Shown piece after piece: positions 5,539 to 32,984 of a DNA stretch of 36,124 nucleotides. Origin of the DNA: Klebsiella phage ST340-VIM1phi10.1; the sequence record MK422455.1; one strand, 5' to 3'. The notes beneath the pieces are model-generated. The model did not search any database. It saw nothing but the letters and a program-made list of their open reading frames with translations, and had not been told where the DNA came from. The position numbers and the translations under genes were made by a program. Numbering within the stretch: the stretch's first letter is position 1; every line of letters starts with the position of its first letter.

Positions 5539-6138
5539 TTAACCTCCCGAGATGAAGCCGACAAACCGGCTTAGTAGCGACTCATCTTTCGGAGTCGGCG
5601 TCTTTACTCCTGAATTTTGCACCGCTGACGTGTTTACCCCCTCTTTCATATTTTCCTTCGCTGCCACGCTGACTGTCTGCGTTTGGCTGGTGATTATTTC
5701 CCTCAGTGTAACTGTCGCCATCAGTACGTTTTCGCTGGTACGTTCGGTCGTCACATCCAGAGAGCGGATCACCATATTGGTATAAAGACGTTTCCCGGTG
5801 GTCACATCAAGCAATTGCCTTTCCTGCTGCATTTTGAGCAGCTCAGCATAGACTTCCTTAGGCCCCATGTTGTTAAGGGGCGTAGACAGCCCGATGCCTG
5901 CTGTATCATAAAAATCCAGCAAGGAACCACCACCAGCAAAGCCTATCTCCATAACGACTTCTGACGGGCGCCGATACGCATGGTCTGCAATGAACCCTGT
6001 GCCTGCGCTTGTAGGCCTTTCAACTGGATGCTCTGTCACCTCCAGAGCATCGCTATGACGCTCTGAAACCACCACATCGGGTATCATCAGACCAATACGG
6101 CGGCTCCGCTGCTGGAAAATGGTTGAAAGAATATCCAT
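5539..6138 (-). CDS. Phage tail protein at the DNA-circulation-protein position after the tape measure
   Basis: 199 aa, start abuts the tape measure stop; call by position only. Confidence 0.4.
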   Translation of the reverse strand: MDILSTIFQQRSRRIGLMIPDVVVSERHSDALEVTEHPVERPTSAGTGFIADHAYRRPSEVVMEIGFAGGGSLLDFYDTAGIGLSTPLNNMGPKEVYAELLKMQQERQLLDVTTGKRLYTNMVIRSLDVTTERTSENVLMATVTLREIITSQTQTVSVAAKENMKEGVNTSAVQNSGVKTPTPKDESLLSRFVGFISGG

Positions 6139-8141
6139 CAGCTCGGCCCCCGGGTTAGTTGCTGGGTAGCGCGTGCATTAACGTTGCCCTGGCTTTCAGA
6201 GACGATTTTCCCCGCCTCTCTCGGATCGCTGACACCAGAAATGTTGATAACGGTATTCTGGTTCAATGTCGCCCCAGCCCCCGGCATATTGCTCAACACT
6301 TTCGGGATATATTGCCTGGTTTCCTGCGGCATCAGCGCCATGCCGTACTTCTGCACATTACCGATGCCCCAGTTATAGGAGGCCAGAGTTTTATTCAGAT
6401 CACCGCCGTTCTTCTGCAGGAGCATCGAAAGATATCGCGCCGCTGCTTCCGCTGACTTGATCGGGTCGAAGACATCATTCCCGCGTAGCCCCATATCCCG
6501 AGCGGTTCCAGGCATAAACTGGAACAATCCCTGTGCGCCAGCACCAGAAACAGCGAACTGGTTACCGCCAGACTCTGTAAGGGCTACGCTACGCAGCAGG
6601 CCCGCAGGGAGGTTGTACAGCGCTTCCAGCTTACCCATCATCGGAGCCATCCAGCCCAGCAACTGAGCGCCTGCTTTAGTGGCCTGAGGTCGTTTAACAG
6701 ACTGCCCGTATTGAGTAGCGTCAGCGCCAAACCAGCCAGTAACGGCTTGACCAATACTGCGAGGGTCAAACCCGGTTTTATTCTGAATCCAGTCCGCAGC
6801 TCTATTGGCGCTGTCTGTCACCGCGTTTGATGGTGTCGGCTCGCCGCCCTGATTCAGCAGCTGTCTGGCGTAAGCTGCCGCGTCTGACCAGCGACCTTCA
6901 TCAATCGCATTGAGAAGCTTGCCTATGGTATCCAGCATCTTGTTCAGCTCATTGAACTGCTTCTTCAGACTGTCGAATTCGAACTTAATCGACCATGTTT
7001 TAGGGTCGATACCGAAAAGCTTAATCAGCTCATCTTTAAGGCGCTTCACACCAGTCCATAGTTTTTCAATGGCGTTAAGCGCCAGAGTTATCGCCGGTTC
7101 CCACGACTTCCAGTCGATGAGGCTTTTACCGCCTTCCTTCCAGGTCTTGTAATCGTCGTACAGCACCAGGATGGCGCCTGCGAGCGCCAGCACCCAGGTA
7201 ATCGGAGAGGCAAGCATTGCCGCATTCAGCAATCGCCAGGCTACAAGCAAGCCACCAAGCGTCTGAATAAGCTTTTGTGTGTCGCTATCCAGCCCGATCC
7301 ACCAGGCCCGGATATCACTGGCGGCCTGAATAAGGCGGTAAATTACCCTGCCTACCATCTCACCAGCCCAGAGAATTCCTTTCACGGTACCGGTTATTGC
7401 GCCTTCAATTTTCGGGAAGTTTTCCAGAATTTGTCGACGCAGCCTGTCCAGAGAGCCAGCAAGGCCATCAGCGAGGCTGGAGCCTATTTTATCCCGCGCC
7501 ATGCCTGCCATCAGCCCAAAGGAGCGCAGCGAGGTCATGAATTTATTAGAGCTGACGGCGGCCACATCGGCGTTATAGCCGATCGCCTTCGCCATCGCGG
7601 TGTATTCGCCACTAAACTGGCCGATACCGCGACGCATTGCCATCAGGGTGTTTTCATCCAGACCCAGCATTTGAGCGTACTGGTTCGCGCGGTAATACGG
7701 CATGCTGCTAAGACGCTGGCCGACGCCGGTAAAGATCGTCGCCATGTCCCGCATATTGCCGCTGGCATCACGCGTTTGAACCCCCAGCCGGTTCAGGAAA
7801 CCTTCCGCGCCTGGGTTATTGCGGATAAACCGTGCCAGATTCTCAAGCGATCCACGCGCTGAGTCGGCGCTGCCGCCTACCTGGCTAACTGCATACCCGA
7901 TTTGCTTGATGCCCTCTACCGTCGCTCCGGTGCGCTGAGAGGCCCAATAGAGGTTGTCGAGGCTGCTGGCTATTTTGGCGGTGAACGCGACAACAGAAAG
8001 CGCTGCCGCTTCGACCTTGACGCCTAGCTCAATCGCTTTCAGCGTCGTACCCGCCACTACAGCATCGAACTTTTTAGCACCGGCCTCATCAACGTTAAAC
8101 CCAAGCGAGATCAGAAAGTCCTTGAGCGTTTCAGCGTTCAT
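6138..8141 (-). CDS. Tail tape measure protein with C-terminal soluble lytic transglycosylase (SLT) domain
   Basis: 667 aa, helical/repetitive N-terminal two thirds. C-terminal segment reads AGLLRSVALTESGGNQFAVSGAGAQGLFQFMPGTARDMGL ... AAARYL, the SLT catalytic Glu-Ser and GLMQ-like motif. Confidence 0.75.
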   Translation of the reverse strand: MNAETLKDFLISLGFNVDEAGAKKFDAVVAGTTLKAIELGVKVEAAALSVVAFTAKIASSLDNLYWASQRTGATVEGIKQIGYAVSQVGGSADSARGSLENLARFIRNNPGAEGFLNRLGVQTRDASGNMRDMATIFTGVGQRLSSMPYYRANQYAQMLGLDENTLMAMRRGIGQFSGEYTAMAKAIGYNADVAAVSSNKFMTSLRSFGLMAGMARDKIGSSLADGLAGSLDRLRRQILENFPKIEGAITGTVKGILWAGEMVGRVIYRLIQAASDIRAWWIGLDSDTQKLIQTLGGLLVAWRLLNAAMLASPITWVLALAGAILVLYDDYKTWKEGGKSLIDWKSWEPAITLALNAIEKLWTGVKRLKDELIKLFGIDPKTWSIKFEFDSLKKQFNELNKMLDTIGKLLNAIDEGRWSDAAAYARQLLNQGGEPTPSNAVTDSANRAADWIQNKTGFDPRSIGQAVTGWFGADATQYGQSVKRPQATKAGAQLLGWMAPMMGKLEALYNLPAGLLRSVALTESGGNQFAVSGAGAQGLFQFMPGTARDMGLRGNDVFDPIKSAEAAARYLSMLLQKNGGDLNKTLASYNWGIGNVQKYGMALMPQETRQYIPKVLSNMPGAGATLNQNTVINISGVSDPREAGKIVSESQGNVNARATQQLTRGPS

Positions 8142-10347: not shown

Positions 10348-10971
10348 TTAATCTCCAAAAAATTGCACTGGCGCGTCGACCAGCGATTGAATGCCGTACT
10401 GGCGGATGATTTTGCGGCGCAGGTCAACGCTGATATCGTACCGGCGCACCCACTGGTTATTGATGAGTTCGGGCAGATTGAGGATCCGCCCATGCTGCAG
10501 AAATGTCAGGCCAGAGCGGTTGAGCTCGTCATTGTTCTGCGAGACCAGCAGACCGTCACGAAAGCGCGTGGCCATTGCCAGCCCCTGCGGGCCATAGAAG
10601 CACAAGATCAGGCTCACGGTCTCATGCGACCACTGTTCGGTGTTCTCTTCGCCCTGCACGTACGCCGGGTTGAAGTCCTCCTGAATGCCGGTGATACCGA
10701 ACGCGCACCAGGTGGTGCCGTTTTTGGGTATCTGCTTTTGCGGGTCAGTCCAGCGTGGGTAAACCAGCGTGGCAGCCAGCCCTGTCACACCCCGTATCCA
10801 GCGGCTGATTAGCCGTTCCAGATCCTCATCGTAGGGCGGTGAATCACCGACGGGGGTCAGATATCCCGCCGTTGTGCTGTCGTTACTCAATTGGCGTTCC
10901 CCCGTCGAATTCCAGAAGCTCGCAATGCGCCTGAACGAACCCGGCACCGTACGCCGTATACGGGTCGACAA
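10348..10971 (-). CDS. Tail completion / head-tail joining protein
   Basis: 207 aa ORF in the connector block; positional call. Confidence 0.4.
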   Translation of the reverse strand: MSTRIRRTVPGSFRRIASFWNSTGERQLSNDSTTAGYLTPVGDSPPYDEDLERLISRWIRGVTGLAATLVYPRWTDPQKQIPKNGTTWCAFGITGIQEDFNPAYVQGEENTEQWSHETVSLILCFYGPQGLAMATRFRDGLLVSQNNDELNRSGLTFLQHGRILNLPELINNQWVRRYDISVDLRRKIIRQYGIQSLVDAPVQFFGD

Positions 10972-11268
10972 ACGTCACACGATAATCTCGCCCGCGGTAG
11001 GTTACGATATCGGCATCTAATCCGGGTTGCCCCTGAGTCAGCCTGAACTGCGTCACGATGAGAATGGCCCCGTTGATGTTCTGTCCGGCGGCCATACGCT
11101 TCGCTTCCAGTGAACGGTCGACGGTTACGACACCAGAGAACGGAATAGCCTGCACGGTATTGGTTGGAAAATTATCTTCGTCCACTGTCTGCACCTGTCG
11201 ATAACACACCAGAGACAGGTCGACAAAGTCCGGATCAAGCAGAACATCCGTCACATCGAGAAACGGCA

Positions 11269-17478: not shown

Positions 17479-18879
17479 TTAGCTGTTTCCCAGCGCTTCC
17501 CAGATATCCATTGCCGTATCGGTTGGAGCAAACGCCATGATGAACGCGTCGGCCACGTTCGGCGATGGTACGTCACGCTTGGCGAGGTCTTTCTTGCTTT
17601 CCACCATCACGCGACCGTTTTTGTCAAAATCACGGTGCGGGGTGGTAAGTTCCAGCTTGAGCTTTTCCAGCAGCGGGCAGGATGAGTCAATGCTAATCAG
17701 CTCATCTACCGGGTACTGCTCGCCGTTCTTTACCGCGTTGAAGGTGTTACGGAAGCGATCCGCTACCAGCCACCAGGCTTGCGCTTTGAGGTTGGCGAAA
17801 AAATCCTTGTTCGGGATCCCACTATATTCGTAGTCCGGCTCATTCACACCAGCGCCTGCATTGAATCGCTGATAATTGATGCGGGATGCATTCATGTTTT
17901 CGCGCTTACGATCCTCATTAATTTCTGAGAATTTCGCGCCAGCAGATGCCCCAACGCCGATTGAGTCGTAGACGATATCAGCATCGCGCTCCAGTGCTGC
18001 CTGATACGTACGCTGGCAGCTCTTCAGCAATTCGTCTTCTTTCGCCTTCCACTCATCCGCCCAATACACGACGGAGCCGTGACGATAGACGTTAGCGCAC
18101 TTATCGGCGCCGCTATCGGCGACGTCGAAGCCAATACGCTTACGCCCGCTTGGCTCGAAATTCAGGATTTTGTGGGCATCAACAGCCGCCTCAATCCATG
18201 ACAGCTTGATAATGGCCGCATCATCATCCGACTCTGGCACGCCTTCGTAGACGTGCTTAAACCCATCCGGATCCCGGCGCTTAGCGGCTTCGATAACCTT
18301 CAGCATCGTGTCGGACAAAAAGGGGTTTTCATCGTAGTTGATTTTGCGTATCAGCGTACCTTCTGGCGGATCGACCACAAAGTTACGCCAAACGAAATCA
18401 GTCACCAGTCCGGGGTTAAAGATAAACCAGCACTCTGAGCCCTCTTTACGGATGGTAGGCTCCAGTATCTTCCACTGGTACTCCGTCAGCGCGTGGGCCT
18501 CTTCAAGCCACAGAACGCTGATACCTTCCAGAGACTTAATCTCTTCAATGTTGCGCCAGAGCCCATAAAACACGAATTCAGACCCGGTCACCCGGTTAAT
18601 GATTTTGTTGTTCAGAATGCGGAAACGATGCCGCAGGCCAAAGCGGTCAATCTGAATTTTGAGCAGGGTATACACCGACTCTTCAATTTTGTTCTGGATC
18701 TGACGCGCACAACAAAAGCGCAGGCTGTATTTATTTGACAGGAATATGGCGATGCCAGCAGCATCCCATGACTTTGACGATGACCGGCCACCATAAAGCA
18801 CTTTGTTACGCGCCTGCGTCGTCCAGAAGCTACGCAGGACCGGATTCAGCGTCGGTTTGGATGTCAGAGTAGAAGTCAT
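17479..18879 (-). CDS. Terminase large subunit
   Basis: ATPase and nuclease architecture (KVLYGGRSSSKSWDAAG Walker A-like; FDVADSGADKC nuclease Asp motif). Start set to ATG 18879 (MTSTLTSK, GGAGAG upstream); the tool's extended N-terminus overlaps the small subunit gene. Confidence 0.85.
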   Translation of the reverse strand: MTSTLTSKPTLNPVLRSFWTTQARNKVLYGGRSSSKSWDAAGIAIFLSNKYSLRFCCARQIQNKIEESVYTLLKIQIDRFGLRHRFRILNNKIINRVTGSEFVFYGLWRNIEEIKSLEGISVLWLEEAHALTEYQWKILEPTIRKEGSECWFIFNPGLVTDFVWRNFVVDPPEGTLIRKINYDENPFLSDTMLKVIEAAKRRDPDGFKHVYEGVPESDDDAAIIKLSWIEAAVDAHKILNFEPSGRKRIGFDVADSGADKCANVYRHGSVVYWADEWKAKEDELLKSCQRTYQAALERDADIVYDSIGVGASAGAKFSEINEDRKRENMNASRINYQRFNAGAGVNEPDYEYSGIPNKDFFANLKAQAWWLVADRFRNTFNAVKNGEQYPVDELISIDSSCPLLEKLKLELTTPHRDFDKNGRVMVESKKDLAKRDVPSPNVADAFIMAFAPTDTAMDIWEALGNS

Positions 18880-19582
18880 TGAGGTCACGCTCTCCGTTGC
18901 CATCATCAATACCAGCATCACGGCGAAGACGATCGGCCTCCAGCGACACCTTATCAGTAGCAGCCTTGCGATAGTCTGTATCAGCAAATATTTTGCCTAC
19001 CGTCGCAAGCGTGCCGACGATGGACTCAATACGAACGGTATTGCGCATCATCGCCTTCTCGGCGGCGCTGATATTTTCCATCAGCACCTTTCTTTCCTGG
19101 TCCCCTTCAGCATCATCCAGCTTGGTCAACCACCGGCCAATATTCTCTGCGGCGACAAGGTTGTTAGCCCGAAGGCGAAATAATTCGTCTTCGAGTGTCA
19201 ACGCTTTCGCGTCTTCAATGACCTCATCTTTAAGCAGAAGACGGCGGGCATAACCACCGTGTTTTAACGCCTGCTGGTTGCCGGGTTGAAATGGGTTAGT
19301 CGGCGGATCGGTACGCACCCCGCGTATCGGTTTCGTATCTGGTGGAGGTTCGGCTTTTGGTTGCGTACGGCCAGAGCTGGCAGGCTTTTCGCTGGTACGC
19401 GCCTTACTCTTTTGCGTACCATTTTTGCGTACCTGCGTACTGGCCTTGCGTACCCAATCAAACTTTTTAGCCCTCTTCCTGATAGCCCCTTCAGTAACGC
19501 CGTATTTATCGCCTATATCACGGAGACTAAGGACTCCGGCCCGGTATGCCGATTCGATGGCCTCCCAGTCCGGTGTTGCCAT
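18830..19582 (-). CDS. Terminase small subunit with N-terminal HTH
   Basis: 250 aa. N-terminus LSLRDIGDKYGVTEGAIRKRAKKF is HTH-like. Directly upstream of the large subunit. Confidence 0.6.
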   Translation of the reverse strand: MATPDWEAIESAYRAGVLSLRDIGDKYGVTEGAIRKRAKKFDWVRKASTQVRKNGTQKSKARTSEKPASSGRTQPKAEPPPDTKPIRGVRTDPPTNPFQPGNQQALKHGGYARRLLLKDEVIEDAKALTLEDELFRLRANNLVAAENIGRWLTKLDDAEGDQERKVLMENISAAEKAMMRNTVRIESIVGTLATVGKIFADTDYRKAATDKVSLEADRLRRDAGIDDGNGERDLNDFYSDIQTDAESGPA

Positions 19583-19642
19583 AATTTTGTCCTCGCCTTG
19601 ACATTATCGAGCCACCTCTGGAAGTGGCTCTGTAATGCCCAT

Positions 19643-19663
19643 AAAAAAACCCGCCGCAGCGGG
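19643..19663 (-). terminator. Rho-independent terminator downstream of the GrlR-like moron
   Basis: Minus-strand RNA forms CCCGC-ugcg-GCGGG followed by UUUUUUU (plus-strand 19643-19649 is AAAAAAA). Confidence 0.55.
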
Positions 19664-19683
19664 TTTGGGATAAAGAATACTCT

Positions 19684-20004
19684 CTAAACCAACTCACCAA
19701 TGAATTTTGCACTTACCCTAAGCCGAGCTTGAGGAATTCCTTTAACGGCCCCTGATAAAAGGTAACCCCCCTGCACTTCTACAATGCTCATTTCCATCGT
19801 GTAGTCATTTACACCTTGAATGACATTCACCGCCTGAGGATTATGCTGAGAAACATGCAAATCTAATGTATCGCCCTGAATATGGCCTTGGTAAGTGAAC
19901 CCGAAATCACCACCGTTGATGGCATTGTCTTTTACTACTACAGTGCCTTGTCCAACATCATGGTTATTGCTGCTGAAGGTTACGAAGTAAATACCGTTTT
20001 TCAT
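19684..20004 (-). CDS. GrlR-family protein (moron)
   Basis: MKNGIYFVTFSSN ... GGDFGFTYQG ... LDLHV ... VSAKFIGELV aligns by eye with EPEC GrlR (MKDGIYSIIF ... GGD ... YQG ... LHV ... VYAKFIEPLV). Low GC; AAGGTG ribosome-binding site 6 nt before ATG 20004; own terminator. Confidence 0.6.
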   Translation of the reverse strand: MKNGIYFVTFSSNNHDVGQGTVVVKDNAINGGDFGFTYQGHIQGDTLDLHVSQHNPQAVNVIQGVNDYTMEMSIVEVQGGYLLSGAVKGIPQARLRVSAKFIGELV

Positions 20005-20096
20005 GTCACACCTTATGTTGTAGCCAATCGGCAAAGGCATTATAGACACGCTACTTACGGGGAGAAAGATGGCATTTTAATAACTGCCGGATATGA

Positions 20097-20354
20097 CTAA
20101 TTTTTCCCTCTAAATATTTCAGACCGACGTATGTCGGCCTTATCCCGGTTGCACTGCCCCAGCGCTGATAGCAGACTGACGTTTAAATCAAGGCTCTGGC
20201 CCCACGTCATCTTGTCCGGTATATCAGGATAAGGCGTTTCAGCTGTCAGGCTGGAGGGTAGCGGCACTACCGGAACGGTGACGTAAACTGTCTTTGTATT
20301 GCTGCAACCGCTTAACTGCGCCAGCAGGAATACCAGCGGGAGCGCAATCATCAT
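20097..20354 (-). CDS. Rz1-like o-spanin lipoprotein (overlapped architecture)
   Basis: MMIALPLVFLLAQLSGC signal with lipobox, then a proline-rich mature peptide. It lies in the +1 frame across the 3' end of Rz and extends beyond it. Confidence 0.55.
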   Translation of the reverse strand: MMIALPLVFLLAQLSGCSNTKTVYVTVPVVPLPSSLTAETPYPDIPDKMTWGQSLDLNVSLLSALGQCNRDKADIRRSEIFRGKN

Positions 20355-20628
20355 TCGCAACAGCCACTTTGATATCCGCCGCGGCTCCCGATGCGTCCAG
20401 TGCGATCTGCTCTTTGGCATTTTTGTTGGCCTCCGCGATGGAATTGAATATGGTCATGGTGGTAAGAACGTTGGCTGTGATGGCCTGAGTGCTGTTTACC
20501 TGCTGCTCGGCGCCATCGGCTCGGGTTTTCTGCTCAGCAGCAGCGTTGTGGTAATGCATTACCAGCCACCCAAGGCAAACCATCAGGCAGATCACAACAG
20601 CGCTGATAATGGCTGCTAATCGGCTCAT
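20239..20628 (-). CDS. Rz-like i-spanin
   Basis: N-terminal transmembrane segment (LAAIISAVVICLMVCLGWLV) then coiled coil; ATGA start/stop overlap with the endolysin. Confidence 0.6.
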   Translation of the reverse strand: MSRLAAIISAVVICLMVCLGWLVMHYHNAAAEQKTRADGAEQQVNSTQAITANVLTTMTIFNSIAEANKNAKEQIALDASGAAADIKVAVANDDCAPAGIPAGAVKRLQQYKDSLRHRSGSAATLQPDS

Positions 20629-21155
20629 TCATCTATCCCCCAACATGCCAGTGCGCTTTCCTGATCACGACGAGAGACCTGGCCGTAACAATTGTTCGAA
20701 CGCACGCGGCAATCTTTTCCGCCATCAAAAATCCACCGGCGAATTTCAGCGCAGGCGCCTTTCCGGTCACCGGCATTCAGCTTGCGGTAGAAGGTGGAAG
20801 GAAAGCATTTACCGGGCCCGATGTTATAGGGGCAGAAACTGGCAATCCCGACCTTTTGAGGGGGTGTCAGAGGAACACGCACATTCTGATCTACCCATGC
20901 CAGCGCCTTATTGCGCTCGACGGCATTAACCTGATCGCATTTGGCCTGGGTTAACTTCATTCCCTGGGTTACAGGTCTTCCATCTACCTGGGTAACTCCA
21001 CGACATATCGTCCATATGCCGGCGCCATCGCGGTATGACGTGAGGCTTTTGCCCTCTTTCTCATTCAGGAACTGGTCCATAAGAACGGGAGCTGAAGCGC
21101 CAGCAGCGATAAGCGCCAGCATGGCCGAACTGAGTTTCGTTTTCAGGTTAGCCAT
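20625..21155 (-). CDS. SAR endolysin (GH24 T4-lysozyme fold, phage 21 / P1 Lyz type)
   Basis: N-terminal signal-anchor-release segment LSSAMLALIAAGASAPVLM, then the catalytic region E ... DGAGIWTICRGVT. Confidence 0.85.
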   Translation of the reverse strand: MANLKTKLSSAMLALIAAGASAPVLMDQFLNEKEGKSLTSYRDGAGIWTICRGVTQVDGRPVTQGMKLTQAKCDQVNAVERNKALAWVDQNVRVPLTPPQKVGIASFCPYNIGPGKCFPSTFYRKLNAGDRKGACAEIRRWIFDGGKDCRVRSNNCYGQVSRRDQESALACWGIDE

Positions 21156-21157
21156 CG

Positions 21158-21415
21158 CTATTCATCCTGCGGTGGCGGGCCACCATAGCCACGATCGAGG
21201 GATTGCTGATACATCTTCGTCCAGCGGCGCTTAAAGTAGAGATTGGTCAGATAAGTCGCTACACCGATTATCACGCCACTGGCCAGGGCAATAAAATTCC
21301 AGTCAAGGCCATGAAACCAGTCATAGGTCCTTGCCAGCCCGGTGCATATCAGGCCGCCTGACGAGCAGTACGAGGCCGCCGAAAAGATTTTGTCAGGCAT
21401 TTTCATAGTCTCCAC
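21158..21415 (-). CDS. Pinholin (S21-like class II holin) with possible dual start
   Basis: Two transmembrane segments. ATYLTNLYFKRR matches S21 LTYLTNLYFKIRE. N-terminus METMKMPDK resembles dual-start antiholin/holin motifs. Confidence 0.75.
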   Translation of the reverse strand: METMKMPDKIFSAASYCSSGGLICTGLARTYDWFHGLDWNFIALASGVIIGVATYLTNLYFKRRWTKMYQQSLDRGYGGPPPQDE

Positions 21416-21811: not shown

Positions 21812-22594
21812 TTAATAACTTGTCGCTTTCTCAAATTCTACTGCAGCCTGACGCTCCCCCTGACGCAGCATGTCCACCAGCCCCTCATAGAACGGTTTCC
21901 AGTTGCGTGACCACGAAGACTGATGGAGATCCGGGAGACGCTTCAGAATGGCGCGGTGAACCGTCGCTGAGGGTACAACAGAGAAGCCATTTCCAGAGCA
22001 GCGCTCACATGTTTTGAAAACCGGTGCGCCAAGTTCTTTGGTCGCTTTGCGATCTAACACCTCCCCTTTACCACCACACCTGCATCGCGCATGGATCACT
22101 TTCTTTCCTCCACACACTCCACAGACCCTTTTCACCAGTTCATTTCTAATCTTTGGGGCCTTCACCTCGACACCGTCTGCATCGAAAATACCAGGGTGCT
22201 TAATTACATCTTCATGGCTGGAAATAAAGCCGGTTCCGCTGCAGCTGTGACACGTTGCGCTGGTGGCCGCCGAACGTGAGTACTCCGCAAAAGCAAATTG
22301 TGCCAGCGTCAACATGCAGGTGCCGAGCTTGTCACCGGCGGCTTTGCGGACATTTTTAGGAGCGTTTTTGATGGCAAACTGCGCCAGCGCCTGAATTGCA
22401 AGCTGTTCATCCGTTTTGCTGATACCAGCCTTTCCGAAGAAAGCGGCCAGGCCGAAGCGTGCCCTGCTGCTGGTCACACCGATCCCGGTCATAATGTCTG
22501 TGCCATTCAGGCGATTCGGGGATGTGCTTTTCGCGTCGTCGGTGATATGCATGCCCTGAGGGCTAAAGTGTTTGAGGGAGGCTTCCAGTTTCAT
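21812..22594 (-). CDS. Q: Late antiterminator Q (phage 82 / Phage_antitermQ type)
   Basis: Cys-rich zinc-binding motifs (CHSCSGTGF, CGVCGGKK ... CRCGGKGE, CERCSGNGF). Located immediately upstream of pR'/tR' and the lysis genes. ATG 22594 overlaps the upstream stop as ATGA. Confidence 0.8.
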   Translation of the reverse strand: MKLEASLKHFSPQGMHITDDAKSTSPNRLNGTDIMTGIGVTSSRARFGLAAFFGKAGISKTDEQLAIQALAQFAIKNAPKNVRKAAGDKLGTCMLTLAQFAFAEYSRSAATSATCHSCSGTGFISSHEDVIKHPGIFDADGVEVKAPKIRNELVKRVCGVCGGKKVIHARCRCGGKGEVLDRKATKELGAPVFKTCERCSGNGFSVVPSATVHRAILKRLPDLHQSSWSRNWKPFYEGLVDMLRQGERQAAVEFEKATSY

Positions 22595-23067
22595 TCTTCG
22601 CACTCCCCGACCAGGTTCAAAATAATGCGATCAAACAGCGAATCCCGTTCCTCAAAATAGTCACATGCCAGTAACCACTTGCAGACTGTTAATGCTTCAG
22701 CCCGGGTAACTGGTTTCATGGCGCACAAAAGGTCAGTGAGCCACCCGCGCCGATCCCAGATAATCTGGACGTAGCCATCGCCATTTTGTGTTTTATACCT
22801 GTGACGAAGTACGGATTCCCAGTAATCCCATTCAATGGTTACATCGCTTAATGTCCAGGGAGAGAGGAGGATGTTTTTAAAACCTTTAATTTCTCTTACG
22901 CGAAGTTCTTCCGCCTCACGACTTAAGTTTTTTTCATCGGCCCAGTTTGCATAAATATGACTGAAGCGCTCCATAACAAGGCGCTCAGCATCAGTAATTT
23001 TCTCAGGCGAAAAGTCCTGTTCGATGGTGAAGAATTGGTTATGTTGCAGATTGTTATTGTTCATCAT
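22591..23067 (-). CDS. Hypothetical protein (158 aa) in the nin-like region
   Basis: Coupled by ATGA overlaps to the primase upstream and Q downstream; no motif recognised. Confidence 0.45.
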   Translation of the reverse strand: MMNNNNLQHNQFFTIEQDFSPEKITDAERLVMERFSHIYANWADEKNLSREAEELRVREIKGFKNILLSPWTLSDVTIEWDYWESVLRHRYKTQNGDGYVQIIWDRRGWLTDLLCAMKPVTRAEALTVCKWLLACDYFEERDSLFDRIILNLVGECEE

Positions 23068-26581: not shown

Positions 26582-27250
26582 ATGGCTATGAAACAGAGAT
26601 GGCAGGACCTGGCCAAAACCAGGATGAAAGAAGTCGGCATGACTCAAGAACAGCTGGCAGAGGCGCTCGGCATAACGCAGGGCGGGCTGGGCCATTGGTT
26701 AAACGCCAGACGTGAACCGAACTTAGAGGTTATAGCTAAGATTTTTAACATATTGAAAATGCCCGGCTTCGTAGTAAATGCTGACGGCACTATCAGCGAC
26801 TCAAGAGCCGATCACAATGTAAGTTTTAATAGCATTAACGAATCCAAGGGAAGCTACCCTGTTATAAGCTGGGTTAGCGCTGGAGATTGGATGGAAGCTG
26901 TAGAACCGTACCACCGTAGAGCGATAGATCGATGGTATGACACCACCGTTGAATGCTCTGAGGATTCGTTCTGGTTAGACGTCAGAGGCGATTCCATGAC
27001 ATCACCAGCAGGGCTGAGCATACCGGAAGGGATGGCGATACTTGTCGATCCCCAAGTGGAAGCAATCAACGGAAAATTGGTTGTAGCGAAACTTGACGGT
27101 GACAATGAAGCCACTTTCAAAAAGCTTGTTATCGATGCCGGTCAAAGATTTCTCAAACCCCTCAACCCCCAATACCCAATAATCCCTATCAATGGCAATT
27201 GCCGTATTATCGGGGTTGTAGTCGACGCAAAAATCACCAACCTCCCATAA
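26582..27250 (+). CDS. cI: CI-type repressor (N-terminal HTH, C-terminal LexA/S24 autopeptidase domain)
   Basis: HTH MTQEQLAEALGITQGGLGHWLN. S24 domain with GDSM Ser and KLVVAK Lys motifs. Confidence 0.85.
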   Translation: MAMKQRWQDLAKTRMKEVGMTQEQLAEALGITQGGLGHWLNARREPNLEVIAKIFNILKMPGFVVNADGTISDSRADHNVSFNSINESKGSYPVISWVSAGDWMEAVEPYHRRAIDRWYDTTVECSEDSFWLDVRGDSMTSPAGLSIPEGMAILVDPQVEAINGKLVVAKLDGDNEATFKKLVIDAGQRFLKPLNPQYPIIPINGNCRIIGVVVDAKITNLP

Positions 27251-27254
27251 ATTG

Positions 27255-27277
27255 GCCGCGAAAGCGGCTTTTTTTTT
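27255..27277 (+). terminator. Intrinsic terminator after cI
   Basis: GCCGC-GAAA-GCGGC hairpin followed by T9, starting 5 nt after the cI stop. Confidence 0.7.
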
Positions 27278-27371
27278 GCCTCCAACACCCCACCAGAAAC
27301 TAAAAAACCTTGAAAAACAAAATGATGTGAAATAACACACCAAAATACTCCATTTTGTATTGATCTTATTT

Positions 27372-27386
27372 AATACGTTATGTATT
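27372..27386. promoter_or_regulatory. OL-like operator: inverted copy of the OR motif (AATACGTTATGTATT)
   Basis: 13 contiguous bp TACGTTATGTATT are the exact reverse complement of AATACATAACGTA in OR (26505-26517). Internally palindromic (AATAC-N5-GTATT). Confidence 0.45.
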
Positions 27387-27420
27387 GTTTATGCATTAGC
27401 GGATTAATGGAGTGCAAAAG

Positions 27421-27735
27421 ATGAGTACAGAGAAATTTTTTCAACTGGTAACTATACCTGATTACCGTTTCTCTTCCGATAAAGAGCAATGTCAAAACAT
27501 TGATTTCGACAAAATTGCTACTGATTGCGATACAAAAACAATATCTATTTTGCAAGCCATCAATCATATAGGGGTTAGCATAATGAGTGAGGCAGAAGAA
27601 AAGAGATTAAATAAAGATAAAATAATGATGCTTTCTAGTGTGGTTGCAGACCTCGCTGAATTAGCAATAGCAACAAATAAAATAGCTAACTCAGCAACAT
27701 ATTCTTCCGGTTATAAGGATGCTAAAAATGTCTGA
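27421..27735 (+). CDS. Small acidic hypothetical protein (104 aa), AT-rich moron
   Basis: GGAG 8 nt before ATG 27421; about 35% GC; no recognisable domain. Confidence 0.5.
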   Translation: MSTEKFFQLVTIPDYRFSSDKEQCQNIDFDKIATDCDTKTISILQAINHIGVSIMSEAEEKRLNKDKIMMLSSVVADLAELAIATNKIANSATYSSGYKDAKNV

Positions 27736-27916
27736 TATCACTTTGCAAAAAGCAGCATCAAAGGCTTACCAGGCTGAGATTGTGGCGAGGATGCTTGAGA
27801 ACTACCCTCATAAACTGACCGACTCAGACGTGGAATCTGTCGCCTCACTTTTGGCTGATCTGATTGGGCCAGTTGCAGCGTACCTTATTGAGGAAGAGTC
27901 TAAAAACCCGGCTTAA
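27728..27916 (+). CDS. Small acidic helical hypothetical protein (62 aa), translationally coupled to the upstream gene
   Basis: AAGG 8 nt before ATG 27728; 8-nt overlap with the upstream stop; net acidic. Confidence 0.5.
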   Translation: MSDITLQKAASKAYQAEIVARMLENYPHKLTDSDVESVASLLADLIGPVAAYLIEEESKNPA

Positions 27917-27984
27917 AAATTTAATTAGTAATTTTAATTACAGGAGTAATCCCGGGGATTTCTGCAATCAAATTAAGGGTAACC

Positions 27985-28083
27985 ATGATTAATAAACAAG
28001 CATTTAAAACAGCTCAGTTATTTGTCTCTCTTGGTTATTGGTCTATAGCCATGCTTTATTTAAAAAAGGCTTACGGTAAATAA
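27985..28083 (+). CDS. Possible 32-aa hydrophobic peptide (MINKQAFKTAQLFVSLGYWSIAMLYLKKAYGK)
   Basis: AAGGGT 5 nt before the ATG; its stop lies 2 nt before the next gene's GTG start. Confidence 0.2.
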   Translation: MINKQAFKTAQLFVSLGYWSIAMLYLKKAYGK

Positions 28084-28085
28084 AA

Positions 28086-28451
28086 GTGAATAATTTAATT
28101 AGCACTTATAGACGCAGAATTTTAAAAGCGGCCTTGTTACGCCACCAGCGAAAGACTGGGAGTAGCTTACTTGTCATTAAGCTCAACAAGGGTGGGATTA
28201 GTACTATCGAATTAACTGAGATTCTTCTTGATGGATTGTTGCGGAAATTCGAGCGACTGGCGCTCGGTGAATACGGAAATGTGGAAGGTGTGAAAGCTCT
28301 TAAGGGAATTTACAGCAACTCTGTTGATGTTAATGGCAGCGGCGAATTCCTCACAGAAAGCGGGAAAGAGTTAATCGACGAGCTTATTTCTGAACTGGTT
28401 GAGTTCGTCAAAAAGCAGAAACCAGTTACTGCGGAGTCCGGCAATGAATAA
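28086..28451 (+). CDS. Hypothetical protein with N-terminal arginine-rich motif (candidate N-like antiterminator; weak)
   Basis: STYRRRILKAALLRHQRK near the N-terminus; located downstream of the OL-like site; GTG start; C-terminal half acidic, unlike lambda N. Confidence 0.4.
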   Translation: MNNLISTYRRRILKAALLRHQRKTGSSLLVIKLNKGGISTIELTEILLDGLLRKFERLALGEYGNVEGVKALKGIYSNSVDVNGSGEFLTESGKELIDELISELVEFVKKQKPVTAESGNE

Positions 28452-29310: not shown

Positions 29311-29501
29311 TTGCTTACTTACGCATTGTTCTATCGGTGGTGATTGTCGCCAGCGTTTATGGGCTGTTCGTTCCGATCCTCATTTCGATGAAGGACACGA
29401 CAGCAGTTATATCCGGTTTTGCCCTGGCGATTCTGACCCCGCCGTGCATCTACGCCATTTGTAAGGGTCTTGTGCTTACCGTAACGAAGGAAAAGAAATG
29501 A
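29307..29501 (+). CDS. Small two-transmembrane-segment membrane protein (64 aa), coupled to the SPFH gene
   Basis: Two hydrophobic helices; ATGA overlaps with both neighbours. Confidence 0.45.
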   Translation: MIAYLRIVLSVVIVASVYGLFVPILISMKDTTAVISGFALAILTPPCIYAICKGLVLTVTKEKK

Positions 29502-30325
29502 AAAAAGCAATTATGGCTTCAATTATCGCACTCTCTGCCATCGGCCTTGTTGGTTGCGATCGAGTTGAGCCCGGCAACGTGGGTATCAAGGTGAATAAGT
29601 TGGGCGACGATAAAGGCGTTGGTGAAGTCGTCGGCGTCGGCCGCTACTGGACCGGCTGGAATACCGAGGTTTATATCTTTCCGACCTTCAAGCAGATGAA
29701 AACGTATGAAGACGCTTTCAACTTCCAGATGAGCGATGGAACCACCATCGGCTACCACATCGGGGTCGCGTACAAGGTTGATCCGACCAAAGTTACAACC
29801 GTTTTCCAGACCTACCGTAAAGGCGTGGACGACATCACCGACACCGACCTGCGGCAGAAAATTGCTGACGCCCTTAATCGTCTCGCAAGTCGGATGAGCA
29901 CCGATAAATTCATTGACGGCGGGAAAGCTGAGCTGCTTGAAAACGCACTGAAAGAGATCCAGTCCGATATGGGGCCGGTTGGTATCCAGGTGATCAGCCT
30001 TTCTTACGTTGGCCGTCCGGAATACCCGCCGACAGTGATCGAAAGCATCAACGCCAAAGTTACGGCCAACCAGAAGACGCTGCAGCGCGAGCAGGAAGTT
30101 AAACAACGTGAAGCTGAAGCCAACATGTTACGAGCCGAAGCCGATGGCCAGGCGGATGCAAAGCTGAAATTGGCTGAAGCAGAAGCAAAGTCTATCCAGA
30201 TCCGTGGGCAGGCCTTGCGTGAGAACCCTGAGGTACTGCAACTGGAGGCCATCAACAAATGGAATGGCACCCTGCCCCAGTACATGACCAGCGGAACAAA
30301 CACCCCTTTTATCCAGGTTAAATGA
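29498..30325 (+). CDS. SPFH/band-7 (HflK/C-prohibitin fold) lipoprotein
   Basis: Signal peptide with lipobox LVGC; SPFH core followed by a long coiled coil (EQEVKQREAEANMLRAEADGQADAKLKLAEAEAKS). Confidence 0.75.
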   Translation: MKKAIMASIIALSAIGLVGCDRVEPGNVGIKVNKLGDDKGVGEVVGVGRYWTGWNTEVYIFPTFKQMKTYEDAFNFQMSDGTTIGYHIGVAYKVDPTKVTTVFQTYRKGVDDITDTDLRQKIADALNRLASRMSTDKFIDGGKAELLENALKEIQSDMGPVGIQVISLSYVGRPEYPPTVIESINAKVTANQKTLQREQEVKQREAEANMLRAEADGQADAKLKLAEAEAKSIQIRGQALRENPEVLQLEAINKWNGTLPQYMTSGTNTPFIQVK

Positions 30326-30369: not shown

Positions 30370-30948
30370 ATGCTTCAGAACATGCTTAACCCGGAACCAA
30401 CCTCAACAGGGATCCGGTCTGGAAACCGGGTGATTGGCTACTCCGCTGCTATTCGCCTGCTGGATAACGGTCGCTATGACAAACACCTTGCCGATGGAAT
30501 GGAAATTCTGGCCTGCATCATGGAAGCGGTAGAAAGCAACTGGATCACGCTCAATATCGAAAAAGAGTTGATCCTCTGGCGCTGGTTACTGGCTGCCGTG
30601 TTCATCACTGAGGAGCTGGAGAAAAACGGAACTGTCGACGTTCCGAATGATACTGGCGGTGTTGATACTGCTGTTATCTATTCCAGCAAGCATGGCGCCA
30701 TTAGCGTCTATCCGGGACCTGAACGCTTTGCACTCGCCAACCATATTGAGCTGGGGGCAATCGAGAAATATGGGCCAGAGGTTGGCCAGCAGCTGGCGCT
30801 GCGGATGTATCAGGACATGGTTATTGCTGACGAAGAATTTGGGTTCAGGTTATCAGCACTTGGCCGGGAGGGGCTTAACCTCCTCCATGACAGCTTTATC
30901 GAACACATCCAGATCGAAGGTGTGCCCGAAGCACCGATTATGCATTGA
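30370..30948 (+). CDS. Hypothetical protein (192 aa)
   Basis: GAGAGG 6 nt before ATG 30370. Confidence 0.45.
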   Translation: MLQNMLNPEPTSTGIRSGNRVIGYSAAIRLLDNGRYDKHLADGMEILACIMEAVESNWITLNIEKELILWRWLLAAVFITEELEKNGTVDVPNDTGGVDTAVIYSSKHGAISVYPGPERFALANHIELGAIEKYGPEVGQQLALRMYQDMVIADEEFGFRLSALGREGLNLLHDSFIEHIQIEGVPEAPIMH

Positions 30949-30953
30949 GGGGA

Positions 30954-31664
30954 ATGATGATGAATAACTTGATCACTAACAAACCATCCATGACCAGCCT
31001 TGAGATCGCCGAGCTGGTAGAAAAACGCCACGACAACGTGAAACGCACGATTGAGACCCTGATTATGCGTGGCGTTATTACTTCTCCTCAAATTGAGGAA
31101 AAGCCTACTGCCGGGCGCCCCACAACAATTTACGTTTTTGAAAGTGAAGAAGGGAAGCGTGACAGCATCATTGTGGTCGCGCAACTCAGCCCCGAGTTTA
31201 CCGCCAGACTGGTAGATCGCTGGAAAGAGCTGGAAGAAGAACGCTCCCGGCCAAAATCGCAGGCAGAGCTGATCGCTGAAATGGCCCTGCTGAATGTTGA
31301 GCAGGAACGACGCCTCTACCAGGTTGAAGAACAGGTGGAAACCGTAGTCGAAGCTGTCGAAAACATTAAGCGTGGAAATATGCGGGCCGGGTATGTCGGT
31401 TATCGCCAGGTGGTCGCAAAAAGCGGCATGACCGATGCCAAGTGTCGAAACCTTGTTAACGCATACCGTATCCCAACCGATACACACGAATTCATGACGC
31501 CTGATGGTTTACTGTCTCGCCGGGCGATCGTGGAGTTTGAACCTTTTATGAAAGCATTCCGCCAAATGATGGCAGAAGCCGAACCACGTGGGACCCGTTG
31601 GTATCACCCGAAAATGGGACTCTTTCAGGCTATCGGATGGGAGGAAAAACATTGTGAAAATTGA
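30954..31664 (+). CDS. rha: Rha-family phage regulatory protein
   Basis: N-terminal MTSLEIAELVEKRHDNVKRTIETL matches the Phage_pRha signature; GAGGGGA before the ATG run. Confidence 0.7.
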   Translation: MMMNNLITNKPSMTSLEIAELVEKRHDNVKRTIETLIMRGVITSPQIEEKPTAGRPTTIYVFESEEGKRDSIIVVAQLSPEFTARLVDRWKELEEERSRPKSQAELIAEMALLNVEQERRLYQVEEQVETVVEAVENIKRGNMRAGYVGYRQVVAKSGMTDAKCRNLVNAYRIPTDTHEFMTPDGLLSRRAIVEFEPFMKAFRQMMAEAEPRGTRWYHPKMGLFQAIGWEEKHCEN

Positions 31665-32792: not shown

Positions 32793-32984
32793 ATGGTAGA
32801 CATTGAAATGATTGACGAGGAAGAGGCGATGCGGATGATCCGAGTATCTTCACGCGTGACCATCCGGAAATACACCGAGCGCTATAATTTCCCCAAGCCG
32901 GTCCGGACCTACCCTAAACAGTATCTGCGCTCTGCTATTGTGGAGTGGATCTTAAACGGGGGAGTCAACCAGAAATCTTCCTGA
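32793..32984 (+). CDS. xis: Excisionase (AlpA/Xis-like HTH)
   Basis: MVDIEMIDEEEAMRMIRVSSRVTIRKYTERYNFPKPV; GAGGTGAG before ATG 32793; convergent with and overlapping the int 3' end. Confidence 0.6.
   Translation: MVDIEMIDEEEAMRMIRVSSRVTIRKYTERYNFPKPVRTYPKQYLRSAIVEWILNGGVNQKSS

What the first reader, a model, noticed from the sequence alone, without database searches (positions are those of the whole stretch)
19643..20050. GrlR-family regulator as a self-contained moron between the lysis cassette and the terminase
The 106-aa product aligns by eye along its whole length with GrlR, the LEE type III secretion negative regulator that binds GrlA. The ends (MKNGIYF... and ...VSAKFIGELV) match as well. 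The gene is AT-rich, has its own AAGGTG ribosome-binding site, and is followed by a clean intrinsic terminator. This is the classic moron architecture in the Rz-to-terminase gap where lambdoid phages carry bor, lom or cor-type conversion genes. A prophage-borne GrlR homologue could titrate a GrlA-like or other host transcription factor and rewire host virulence or motility regulation from the lysogen.
Basis: partly seen in the sequence, partly recalled or inferred. Interest (0 to 1): 0.55.

Follow-up and report, generated by a model that had tools for sequence, protein, structure and literature searches.

The report
Prophage cargo gene with GrlR fold
A Klebsiella prophage carries, between its lysis genes and its DNA-packaging genes, a small self-contained cargo gene whose protein has the same fold as the E. 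coli virulence regulator GrlR but lacks GrlR's partner and partner-binding motif, so it is a real but already-annotated accessory gene of unknown target.

Summary
On the minus strand, ATG 20004 to stop 19684 encodes a 106-aa protein. It is a full-length GrlR-family member: Pfam PF16518 scores 28.0 bits against a 26.8 cutoff, it is 33% identical to LEE GrlR, and the AF2 model (pLDDT 93) superposes on GrlR at TM 0.88. The gene lies in a 490-bp low-GC cassette (19641-20130) that is absent or replaced in related phages. The cassette carries an invariant TATAAT, an AAGGTG ribosome-binding site and a strong terminator, so the moron architecture is supported.

The protein is not a GrlR orthologue. 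It scores 41 bits against the 205-bit equivalog cutoff. It lacks the EDED motif needed to bind GrlA. No grlA-like gene lies nearby in about 120 loci. CaiF/GrlA proteins were found in Salmonella, E. coli and Citrobacter, but not in the genera that carry this clade.

It matches phrog_2483 ("unknown function") and is already labelled "GrlR family regulatory protein" or "negative regulator GrlR" in public records.

Most likely it is a dimeric cytoplasmic beta-barrel, expressed from the prophage, that sequesters a broadly conserved partner other than GrlA. The mechanism is inferred, not shown.

Verdict: new member of a known kind, of modest interest.

The parts
19641..20130 (-). Variable cargo cassette (moron) of 490 bp: leader, gene and terminator. 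It also supplies the last ~11 codons of Rz1.
   Evidence: Homology to GZ7, E. coli ST540 and ECONIH4 prophages stops at 19639/19640 and resumes at 20131. ST540 has only 27 bp in this slot. GC is 42-43% against 51-56% in the flanks.
20039..20044 (-). Candidate sigma-70 -10 hexamer, TATAAT (perfect match).
   Evidence: Read. It lies 28-33 nt upstream of the ATG in 8 divergent leaders. It is the main invariant block in alignment A9, whose mean column identity is 52%. Promoter function has not been shown.
20061..20066 (-). Weak candidate -35, TTCTCC (3 of 6 matches, 16-nt spacer).
   Evidence: It is poorly conserved between relatives, so this assignment is tentative.
20023..20032 (-). Short leader stem-loop, GCC-GATT-GGC, starting about 7 nt after the -10. 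That would place it at the predicted 5' end of the transcript.
   Evidence: GCC...GGC is invariant in A9. On its own the hairpin is weak: -3.8 kcal/mol, z = 0.2. Its role is unknown.
20009..20014 (-). Shine-Dalgarno sequence AAGGTG, 4 nt before the ATG.
   Evidence: An AAGG/GGAG-type motif is conserved at this position across the clade.
19684..20004 (-). Coding sequence: 106 aa plus stop. GrlR-family eight-stranded beta-barrel, phrog_2483.
19640..19666 (-). Intrinsic terminator: 8-bp stem AAACCCGC/GCGGGTTT, loop TGCG, then a T-run.
   Evidence: The region folds at -20.5 kcal/mol, z = -4.6. An equivalent terminator follows the gene in about 46 of 50 non-redundant loci, with different stems. The empty ST540 slot has no such terminator.
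20097..20420 (-). Upstream neighbour: the Rz1/LysC o-spanin reading frame, embedded in Rz. Its C-terminal tail differs between cassette variants.
   Evidence: Pfam LysC, E 1.4e-17. Junction alignment A2.
20239..20628 (-). Rz-type i-spanin (DUF2570-like), the last backbone lysis gene.
18830..19582 (-). Downstream neighbour: small terminase subunit, named from annotation of near-identical relatives.
   Evidence: It has no Pfam hit. It overlaps the large terminase gene at 17479-18987.
21812..22603 (-). Antiterminator Q. It heads the late operon that reads through the cassette.
   Evidence: Pfam Antiterm, E 2e-46. Promoter-like and terminator-like sites lie just downstream at 21834-21527.

Best explanation
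This is a single-gene, horizontally mobile cargo cassette (a moron) in the late region of a lambdoid Klebsiella pneumoniae prophage.

Shown by sequence:
- The cassette runs, in order: perfect -10, short leader, Shine-Dalgarno, 106-aa ORF, strong intrinsic terminator.
- It is inserted exactly between Rz1 and the small terminase gene.
- Its GC content is low and its coding sequence is under strong purifying selection.
- The protein is a cytoplasmic eight-stranded beta-barrel of the GrlR family (phrog_2483).

Inferred:
- In the lysogen the gene is transcribed from its own promoter, and transcription stops at its own terminator. During lytic growth, Q-modified RNA polymerase reads through it.
- The protein forms a GrlR-like homodimer and acts by binding and sequestering a partner, not by binding DNA.
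- The partner is not GrlA bound through an EDED patch. It is a factor conserved across Enterobacterales, possibly the same unknown factor behind GrlR's GrlA-independent repression.

The cassette and fold parts of this statement deserve about 0.9 confidence. The sequestration mechanism deserves about 0.3.
For: - Family and fold.
- Cassette boundaries, and empty or alternative slots in relatives.
- Low GC.
- Terminator strength, and its co-transfer with the gene across clades with different stems.
- Footprint of the -10 hexamer in divergent leaders, while synonymous sites in the gene are saturated.
- In Enterobacterales the same gene sits between the spanin and terminase genes of phages with unrelated terminases (GpA, Terminase_2, Terminase_4/TerL) and unrelated holins. 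In distant phages it sits at other late-region junctions: inside the tail module in Acinetobacter phage qsb1, and after Q in Pm34. This is how morons behave.
- It is dispensable and rare: 7 of 50,697 phage records, and 14 of 5,426 complete E. coli genomes for one variant.
- All five residues of GrlR's hydrophobic dimer cluster (I7, I23, I25, V39, I107; PMC1868957) map to invariant or >=90% conserved positions here (I5, T21, V23, T37, I102). My estimate of the chance probability is about 0.008.
- GrlR can repress without GrlA, even in E. coli K-12 (PMC9979310). A GrlA-free member could therefore still be regulatory.
Against: - No experiment shows promoter activity. The -35 is weak (3 of 6), and the simple promoter scan did not call the site.
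- The E. coli, Enterobacter and Salmonella clade of the same family has no recognisable sigma-70 promoter in its leader. Autonomous transcription may therefore not be general.
- Two of the five dimer-interface hydrophobic residues are Thr here.
- No partner is identified. The regulator-sequestration idea rests only on homology (33% identity) to one characterised protein, whose specific binding motif is absent.
- The wider family has 478 clusters and sits in varied contexts (phage, defence-island-like, T6SS, fimbrial). No single role emerges from these.
Confidence: 0.45

Rival explanations
1. It is a small-molecule or hydrophobic-ligand binding barrel, for example a sponge for an immune signalling molecule or a lipid binder. 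It would act in phage-host or phage-phage conflict and not in transcription control.
For: - GrlR has a lipocalin-like barrel with a hydrophobic cavity, which held Triton X-100 in the crystal (PMC1868957).
- The model has weak fold resemblance to lipocalins and to the Cap15 cyclic-dinucleotide receptor barrel, TM about 0.5.
- In a Kosakonia prophage the same Rz1-to-terminase slot also holds an Acb2/Tad1 hairpin-domain gene, E 1.6e-18.
- A Serratia prophage with this gene carries KwaA nearby.
- Distant family members sit next to TIR-domain genes in Stenotrophomonas and in L096, and near GmrSD, PLD and HEPN genes.
Against: - There are no matches in PADLOC or to known sponge families.
- Fold matches other than GrlR are weak.
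- The three TIR neighbours come from related genomes, so they count as about one event.
- A self-terminated cassette in the late region, with its own promoter, is not the usual early-expressed arrangement for anti-defence genes.
- I could not examine the cavity, because no model coordinates were available.
Confidence: 0.2
2. It is an ordinary late-operon passenger, expressed only by Q-dependent read-through. It would serve the lytic cycle, for example in lysis timing, packaging or virion-associated function, and have no role in the lysogen.
For: - The gene is always co-oriented with the late genes.
- In Enterobacterales it directly follows the spanin genes.
- The other clade lacks a recognisable sigma-70 promoter.
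- The -35 in the window is weak.
Against: - Close relatives do without the gene (empty slot), and it is rare.
- It occurs with unrelated lysis and packaging modules, and at different junctions in distant phages. This argues against a module-specific lytic role.
- The invariant -10 and the dedicated terminator, which is absent from the empty site, are unnecessary for a mere passenger.
Confidence: 0.15
3. It is a true functional GrlR: a negative regulator of a type III secretion system that binds GrlA or a close GrlA homologue of the host.
For: - The Pfam and fold matches to GrlR.
- Existing database labels read 'negative regulator GrlR'.
- GrlR-like genes paired with GrlA do occur outside the LEE, in Salmonella and Citrobacter: at a T3SS cluster and at a fimbrial operon.
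Against: - NCBIfam GrlR equivalog: 41 bits against a 205-bit cutoff.
- The EDED motif is absent, and is unique to the LEE cluster among about 200 representatives.
- No grlA-like ORF occurs in the window or in 1.16 Mb of family loci.
- CaiF/GrlA hits are confined to Salmonella, E. coli and Citrobacter in the best 120 of 168. The phage clade lives in Klebsiella, Serratia, Yersinia, Enterobacter, Cronobacter and Kosakonia.
- The GrlA-paired relatives are 39-53% identical to GrlR, while the phage clade is about 33% identical.
Confidence: 0.03

Closest known systems
[quoted passage not shown]
   Same: - Same Pfam family.
- 33% identity over the full length.
- Same eight-stranded barrel with a long 'plug' loop (TM 0.88).
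- Conserved N-terminal MK(D/N)GIY, (N/T)GGD...YQG and C-terminal AKFI motifs.
- The positions of the dimer-interface cluster are conserved.
- Acidic to neutral pI (5.7 here, 5.0 for GrlR).
   Different: - No EDED motif.
- No C-terminal tail (106 aa against 123 aa).
- No adjacent grlA gene.
- Prophage late-region context instead of a T3SS island.
- Far below the NCBIfam equivalog cutoff.
- The host genus lacks the LEE (my own knowledge, not tested here).
GrlR-like proteins paired with CaiF/GrlA-family regulators in Salmonella enterica and Citrobacter (LEE-like T3SS; fimbrial operon)
   Same: Same family. These proteins show that the GrlR fold is used outside the E. coli LEE.
   Different: They keep a CaiF/GrlA gene in cis and are closer to GrlR (39-53% identity). 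The phage clade has no cis partner.
Classical lambdoid morons (lambda bor and lom, HK97/HK022 morons; concept of Juhala and Hendrix, cited from my own knowledge)
   Same: - A single gene inserted between two backbone genes that are adjacent in relatives.
- Its own terminator and a candidate promoter.
- Lower GC than the backbone.
- Located at a module junction of the late operon.
   Different: The cargo is a cytoplasmic GrlR-fold barrel, not an outer-membrane or exclusion protein. Expression in the lysogen has not been shown.
phrog_2483 (PHROGs v4, 'unknown function')
   Same: Full-length match, positions 1-106 of 106, E 9e-62. This is the phage family to which the gene belongs.
   Different: Nothing differs. 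PHROGs assigns no function, and it does not record the link to GrlR.

Membership tests
LEE GrlR orthologue (NCBIfam NF010652 equivalog) | Score at or above the curated equivalog cutoff (205 bits) | tested here: not met
   41 bits.
LEE GrlR orthologue | Surface EDED (E46-D49) acidic motif, required for GrlA binding and repression | tested here: not met
   EDED aligns to G44-D45-(gap)-T46, and the position is variable across the clade. Only the LEE cluster, P0155, has four or more consecutive acidic residues among about 200 representatives. The motif requirement comes from PMC1868957.
LEE GrlR orthologue | Encoded in an operon with grlA (CaiF_GrlA, PF07180) | tested here: not met
   tblastn with GrlA against the window plus about 120 loci (1.16 Mb) found no hit better than E 6.4. 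No PF07180 gene appears among the called neighbours. The LEE arrangement is shown.
LEE GrlR orthologue | Located in a LEE or T3SS island | tested here: not met
   It lies in a prophage late region, between Rz1 and the terminase.
LEE GrlR orthologue | Binds GrlA and represses the LEE1 promoter | not testable with these tools
   This needs pull-down and reporter assays.
GrlR family (Pfam PF16518) | Full-length match at or above the gathering score | tested here: met
   28.0 bits against 26.8, residues 1-105 on profile positions 1-110 of 110. The margin is narrow, but the match is backed by phmmer against PDB (E 4e-10).
GrlR family (Pfam PF16518) | Eight-stranded antiparallel beta-barrel with a long plug loop | tested here: met
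   The AF2 model has 8 strands and a loop at residues 54-66, pLDDT 93. Foldseek gives TM 0.88 to 4kt5/2ovs.
GrlR family (Pfam PF16518) | Homodimer through a hydrophobic surface cluster (GrlR I7, I23, I25, V39, I107) | tested here: inconclusive
   The equivalent residues are I5, T21, V23, T37 and I102. All are invariant or >=90% conserved in the clade, but two are Thr. No multimer prediction was possible.
Phage moron | Inserted between two genes that are adjacent in related phages | tested here: met
   The ST540 prophage has 27 bp between Rz1 and terS where the window has 490 bp. GZ7 and ECONIH4 hold other cargo in the slot.
Phage moron | Own transcription terminator | tested here: met
   The terminator is absent from the empty site.
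Phage moron | Own promoter | tested here: inconclusive
   A perfect TATAAT is conserved as a phylogenetic footprint. The -35 is weak, the generic scan did not call the site, and no activity data exist.
Phage moron | Base composition differs from the backbone | tested here: met
   GC is 42-43% against 51-56%.
Phage moron | Expressed from the repressed prophage | not testable with these tools
   This needs lysogen RNA-seq or TSS mapping.
Known anti-defence sponges (Acb2, Tad1, Tad2 type) | Sequence or fold similarity to a described sponge family | tested here: not met
   GrlR is the only Pfam hit. Neither PDB nor BFVD gives a fold match to a sponge. PADLOC gives no hit, but it covers defence systems, not anti-defence proteins.

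The most novel reading that the evidence does not exclude
The 106-aa phage-borne clade represents the ancestral, GrlA-independent activity of the GrlR fold. On this reading it is a prophage-expressed, trans-acting barrel that silences a broadly conserved host factor. The GrlA-paired GrlR proteins of the LEE, the Salmonella T3SS and the fimbrial operons would then be domesticated derivatives of such mobile cargo. Studying the phage protein would expose the unknown mechanism by which GrlR represses without GrlA.
Probability: 0.12. Interest if true: 0.6.

Novelty: new member of a known kind. Interest (0 to 1): 0.35.

Why it matters
If the protein is made in lysogens and targets a conserved host factor, it would be a lysogenic-conversion function. 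It is carried by prophages of carbapenemase-producing K. pneumoniae clones; the window is 100% identical over the 901-bp query (19400-20300) to ST512-KPC3phi13.5.

It would also give a GrlA-free handle on the unexplained GrlA-independent repression by GrlR reported in 2023 (PMC9979310).

Two practical points follow:
- The database label 'negative regulator GrlR / T3SS negative regulator' on these phage genes overstates what is known. 'GrlR-family protein, function unknown' would be accurate.
- The 118-aa start used in MN166823 is probably too far upstream.

Tried and rejected
1. True GrlR/GrlA system: rejected.
2. Partner gene in cis: none recurs among the neighbours of 19 distant loci or in the phage loci.
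3. The broad family alignment A5 was too diverse for a genome scan. I narrowed it to A6, which gave 27 loci.
4. GrlA single-sequence search: it found only close relatives. The profile search A10 reached Salmonella, E. coli and Citrobacter, but 48 weaker hits were not listed, so the absence from Klebsiella is not proven.
5. Rfam scan of the whole window: no family matched.
6. PADLOC: no hit.
7. BFVD viral fold search: nothing below E 0.02.
8. The Padavannil 2013 paper on the GrlR-GrlA complex is not held. I therefore could not map the GrlA-contact residues other than EDED.
9. Model coordinates are not exposed to scripts, so cavity and surface-conservation analysis was not possible.
10. The window's leader hairpin is not significant on its own (z = 0.2).
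11. Literature searches found no functional study of phage-borne GrlR homologues. The only mention is a remark that uncharacterised 'orthologs' exist in Klebsiella, Serratia and Salmonella.

Full report
**What is there.** The feature lies on the minus strand. ATG 20004 to TAG 19686-19684 encodes a 106-aa protein, MKNGIYF...AKFIGELV. Longer readings are possible from ATG 20040 (118 aa, used in GenBank MN166823) or GTG 20049 (121 aa). They are unlikely, because all 50 full-length homologues are 105-107 aa and begin MK(D/N)GIY. The surrounding gene order, in the direction of transcription, is:
- antiterminator Q (21812-22603);
- promoter-like and terminator-like sites;
- holin (21158-21415), lysozyme (20625-21155), Rz (20239-20628) and Rz1/LysC (ends at 20097);
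- this gene;
- small terminase (18830-19582), large terminase (17479-18987) and portal.

The window is a lambdoid prophage of Klebsiella pneumoniae. Over the 901-bp query (19400-20300) it is 100% identical to phages ST512-KPC3phi13.5, P12620-1 and P18-100. It has an integrase at 32965-34146 and a host DJ-1/PfpI gene beyond it.

**Checking the observation.** Each descriptive claim holds.
- The protein matches Pfam GrlR (PF16518) end to end at 28.0 bits, just above the 26.8-bit gathering score.
- It matches the GrlR crystal-structure sequences at E about 4e-10.
- It is 33% identical to Sakai GrlR over 109 columns, with both termini aligned.
- An AlphaFold2 model built from 51 homologues has mean pLDDT 93.1. 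It shows eight strands and a long loop at residues 54-66.
- Foldseek puts GrlR chains 4kt5_B, 4kt5_A and 2ovs_A first, at TM 0.88 and 2.1-2.3 A. Nothing else exceeds TM 0.6.
- GC falls to 42-43% over the gene, against 51-56% on both sides.
- AAGGTG lies 4 nt before the ATG.
- The terminator (stem 19666->19647, then a T-run) folds at -20.5 kcal/mol, z = -4.6.
- The gene is under strong purifying selection: dN/dS is 0.02-0.05, and synonymous sites are saturated against relatives that are 85% identical in protein.

**It is a mobile cassette.** Related prophages match both flanks but not the middle. Homology to Klebsiella phage GZ7 and to the prophages of E. coli ST540 and ECONIH4 stops at window 19639/19640 and resumes at 20131.
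- In ST540 the slot holds 27 bp, so Rz1 is followed almost directly by the terminase gene.
- In GZ7 the slot holds a 142-aa ORF, and in ECONIH4 a 232-aa ORF. Both are unrelated to this gene.
- The upstream junction lies inside the last codons of Rz1, whose C-terminal tail therefore differs between variants.
- The downstream junction lies just past the terminator.
- The empty site has no terminator, so the terminator belongs to the cargo and not to the backbone.

I also examined 50 non-redundant loci, taken from IMG/VR, from assemblies and from the window itself.
- About 46 have a strong hairpin plus T-run within 0-40 nt of the stop codon. The stem sequences differ between clades, so it is the feature that is conserved.
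- In the clade that contains the window (58-100% protein identity), a perfect TATAAT lies 28-33 nt upstream of the ATG.
- In an alignment of ten such leaders with 52% mean column identity, the invariant blocks are that hexamer (window 20044->20039), a GCC...GGC stem, the Shine-Dalgarno G and the ATG.

This is a phylogenetic footprint of a -10 element. However, the -35 is weak (TTCTCC, 3 of 6) and promoter activity is unproven. In the E. coli, Enterobacter and Salmonella clade I found no canonical sigma-70 promoter.

**Where the family lives.** Close relatives (44-92% identity, 106 aa) occur in Klebsiella, Serratia, Kosakonia, Cronobacter, Yersinia, Enterobacter, Leclercia, E. coli, Salmonella, Citrobacter and Sodalis. 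NCBI names most of them 'GrlR family regulatory protein'.
- In Serratia, E. coli, Salmonella and Yersinia prophages, and in Escherichia phage SKA5, the gene again follows the spanin gene and precedes the terminase. Those phages have unrelated terminases (GpA, Terminase_2, Terminase_4/TerL with HNH) and unrelated holins.
- In more distant phages it sits at other junctions of the late region: between a minor tail gene and a tail-fibre gene in Acinetobacter phage qsb1, and just after Q in phage Pm34.
- It is rare: 7 of 50,697 deposited phage records, and 14 of 5,426 complete E. coli genomes for one variant.
- PHROGs holds it as phrog_2483, 'unknown function'.
- A profile search of 1.84 billion representatives finds 478 clusters, almost all single-domain proteins of 105-115 aa.
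- These lie in varied settings: prophages; next to TIR-domain genes in Stenotrophomonas; near GmrSD, PLD and HEPN genes; and next to TetR and a VgrG cluster in Acinetobacter baumannii. No partner recurs.

**Is it GrlR?** No.
- It scores 41 bits against the 205-bit NCBIfam equivalog cutoff.
- The surface EDED motif is needed for GrlA binding and for repression (Jobichen et al. 2007, PMC1868957). It aligns to G44-D45-(gap)-T46 here and is variable across the clade.
- Among about 200 family representatives, only the LEE cluster itself has four consecutive acidic residues.
- LEE grlR is co-transcribed with grlA. tblastn with GrlA finds nothing in the window or in 1.16 Mb around about 120 family genes.
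- GrlR's nearer relatives do keep the pairing. A Salmonella/Citrobacter protein 53% identical to GrlR sits in a LEE-like T3SS cluster directly upstream of a CaiF_GrlA gene. A Salmonella protein 41% identical sits beside a chaperone-usher fimbrial operon, with a CaiF_GrlA gene 750 bp away.
- The phage clade is about 33% identical to GrlR and has no such neighbour.
- A profile of GrlA-type partners retrieved 168 proteins. The best 120 are from Salmonella, E. coli and Citrobacter, and none is from the genera where the phage clade is found. The search depends on shared words and 48 weaker hits were not listed, so this is suggestive and not conclusive.

**How it most likely works.** The architecture is shown; what follows is inferred.
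- In the lysogen a sigma-70 polymerase would start about 7 nt after the TATAAT, transcribe the 106-codon gene and stop at the cassette's own terminator.
- In lytic growth, Q-modified polymerase would read through. This is established lambdoid biology, stated from my own knowledge.
- The protein has no signal peptide and is near-neutral to acidic: pI 5.7, clade median 5.8.
- The five residues that form GrlR's hydrophobic dimer cluster all map to invariant or nearly invariant positions (I5, T21, V23, T37, I102). This fits a conserved dimer, although two are Thr.
- GrlR acts by protein-protein sequestration. Lara-Ochoa et al. 2023 (PMC9979310) show that it also represses LEE promoters without GrlA, even in E. 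coli K-12.
- The cassette moves alone between phages of many Enterobacterales, so any partner must be broadly conserved.

My best reading is therefore a prophage-expressed dimeric barrel that sequesters a conserved host factor, or possibly a factor of an incoming phage, other than GrlA. I put about 0.9 on the cassette and fold and about 0.3 on this mechanism.

The main rival is a ligand-binding or sponge role (0.2). It draws on the lipocalin-like cavity of GrlR, on the Acb2/Tad1-type gene sharing the same slot in Kosakonia, and on the defence-island-like neighbours of distant members. It has no direct support.

A purely lytic passenger role (0.15) is disfavoured by the gene's dispensability, its mobility between modules, and its dedicated terminator and -10.

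**Novelty and verdict.** GenBank already labels the gene 'negative regulator GrlR', and PGAP labels it 'GrlR family regulatory protein'. PHROGs catalogues it as unknown. One paper notes that uncharacterised 'orthologs' exist in Klebsiella, Serratia and Salmonella, without mentioning phages. I found no functional study.

This analysis adds four things:
- the exact cassette boundaries;
- the co-transferred terminator and the -10 footprint;
- the systematic phage late-region location;
- evidence that the determinants of the GrlR-GrlA interaction are absent from the phage clade but retained in a Salmonella/Citrobacter subclade.

It is a new member of known kinds (a moron, and the GrlR fold family), real and tidy but not surprising. 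I score interest at 0.35.

Noticed in passing
window 19609-19630 (minus strand): An inverted repeat, GAGCCAC(T)-TCCAGA-(G)GTGGCTC, lies between the cassette and the small-terminase start. It is conserved in GZ7 and ST540. In ECONIH4 it is replaced by a different but still complementary stem (GAAGCCC...GGGCTTC), with identical flanks (ATTACAGA...CGATAATGTC). It looks like a functional backbone hairpin upstream of terS. No T-run follows it.
   Followed up: partly
L007, L035, L038, L047, L052, L058, L063, L065, L067 etc., 20-35 nt upstream of the GrlR-like ATG: The E. coli, Enterobacter and Salmonella clade has a conserved leader hairpin, GCACC-N7-GGUGC. Three of its pairs show compensatory changes, for example GCACU/AGUGC in L058 and GCAUC/GAUGC in L031 (A8). 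A second possible hairpin, CUUUCA-UUU-UGAAAG, overlaps the Shine-Dalgarno sequence. It also has a conserved TTGAnT...CCCAATAAATA box with no clear sigma-70 -10. This could be an attenuator, a translational switch or an operator.
   Followed up: partly
window 3001-4200 (minus-strand ORFs 3029-3595 and 3870-4211): A second low-GC island (40-45%, against about 54%) lies inside the tail module. It holds a 188-aa ORF with an HEAGH motif and a 113-aa ORF with an N-terminal signal-like sequence. Neither has a Pfam hit. These may be further moron-type cargo.
   Followed up: partly
window 27001-28200 (plus-strand ORFs 27412-27735, 27719-27916): A third low-GC island (38-40%) lies immediately downstream of the CI-like repressor gene (26582-27250; HTH plus Peptidase_S24). 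It contains small ORFs of unknown function.
   Followed up: no
window 20097-20130 (minus strand): The last ~11 codons of Rz1/LysC lie inside the variable cassette. The o-spanin C-terminal tail is therefore swapped along with the cargo...RRSEIFRGKN here, against ...RQAESKRQ in ST540.
   Followed up: partly
window 20005-20049; GenBank MN166823 CDS 10703-11059: The deposited annotation starts the gene at ATG 20040 (118 aa). The conserved 106-aa length, the Shine-Dalgarno position and the TATAAT at 20044-20039 all indicate that ATG 20004 is the true start.
   Followed up: yes
L113, L115, L118 (Stenotrophomonas), about 2805-3900; L096 21-521: A TIR-domain protein of about 340 aa is divergently transcribed about 170 nt upstream of a distant GrlR-family gene in three related Stenotrophomonas genomes. 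Another family member lies 2 kb from a TIR_2 gene and next to a PIN7 gene.
   Followed up: partly
L011/L012 (Acinetobacter baumannii) 6001-6938: A 47%-identical family member lies outside any phage. It is convergent with, and overlaps by 4 nt, a TetR-family gene, directly upstream of a VgrG/Tli4 type VI secretion cluster.
   Followed up: no
L013 (Kosakonia cowanii) 4796-5077; L005 (Serratia) 1818-3213: Other cargo occurs in the same prophage hot spots. An Acb2/Tad1 hairpin-domain gene (E 1.6e-18) lies between LysC and the GrlR-like gene in Kosakonia. A KwaA gene, with a KwaB-sized partner, lies between Q and the holin gene in Serratia.
   Followed up: partly
L130 2730-4345 (Salmonella enterica); L129 4001-4850: GrlR-like/CaiF_GrlA gene pairs exist outside the E. 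coli LEE. One is in a LEE-like T3SS cluster of S. enterica subsp. salamae and Citrobacter. Another is beside a chaperone-usher fimbrial operon in S. enterica, where several sources mislabel the GrlR-like protein 'nucleoside transporter'.
   Followed up: partly
window 29498-30325 and 30945-31664 (plus strand): The early-left region encodes an SPFH/Band-7 protein with a lipoprotein-like N-terminus (E 8e-32) and a Rha-family regulator.
   Followed up: no
L002 (phage GZ7) 2231-2659: The ORF that occupies the equivalent slot in GZ7 matches phrog_162, labelled 'endolysin' (E 2.9e-13). However, its only Pfam similarities are weak matches to membrane proteins, so the label is doubtful.
   Followed up: no
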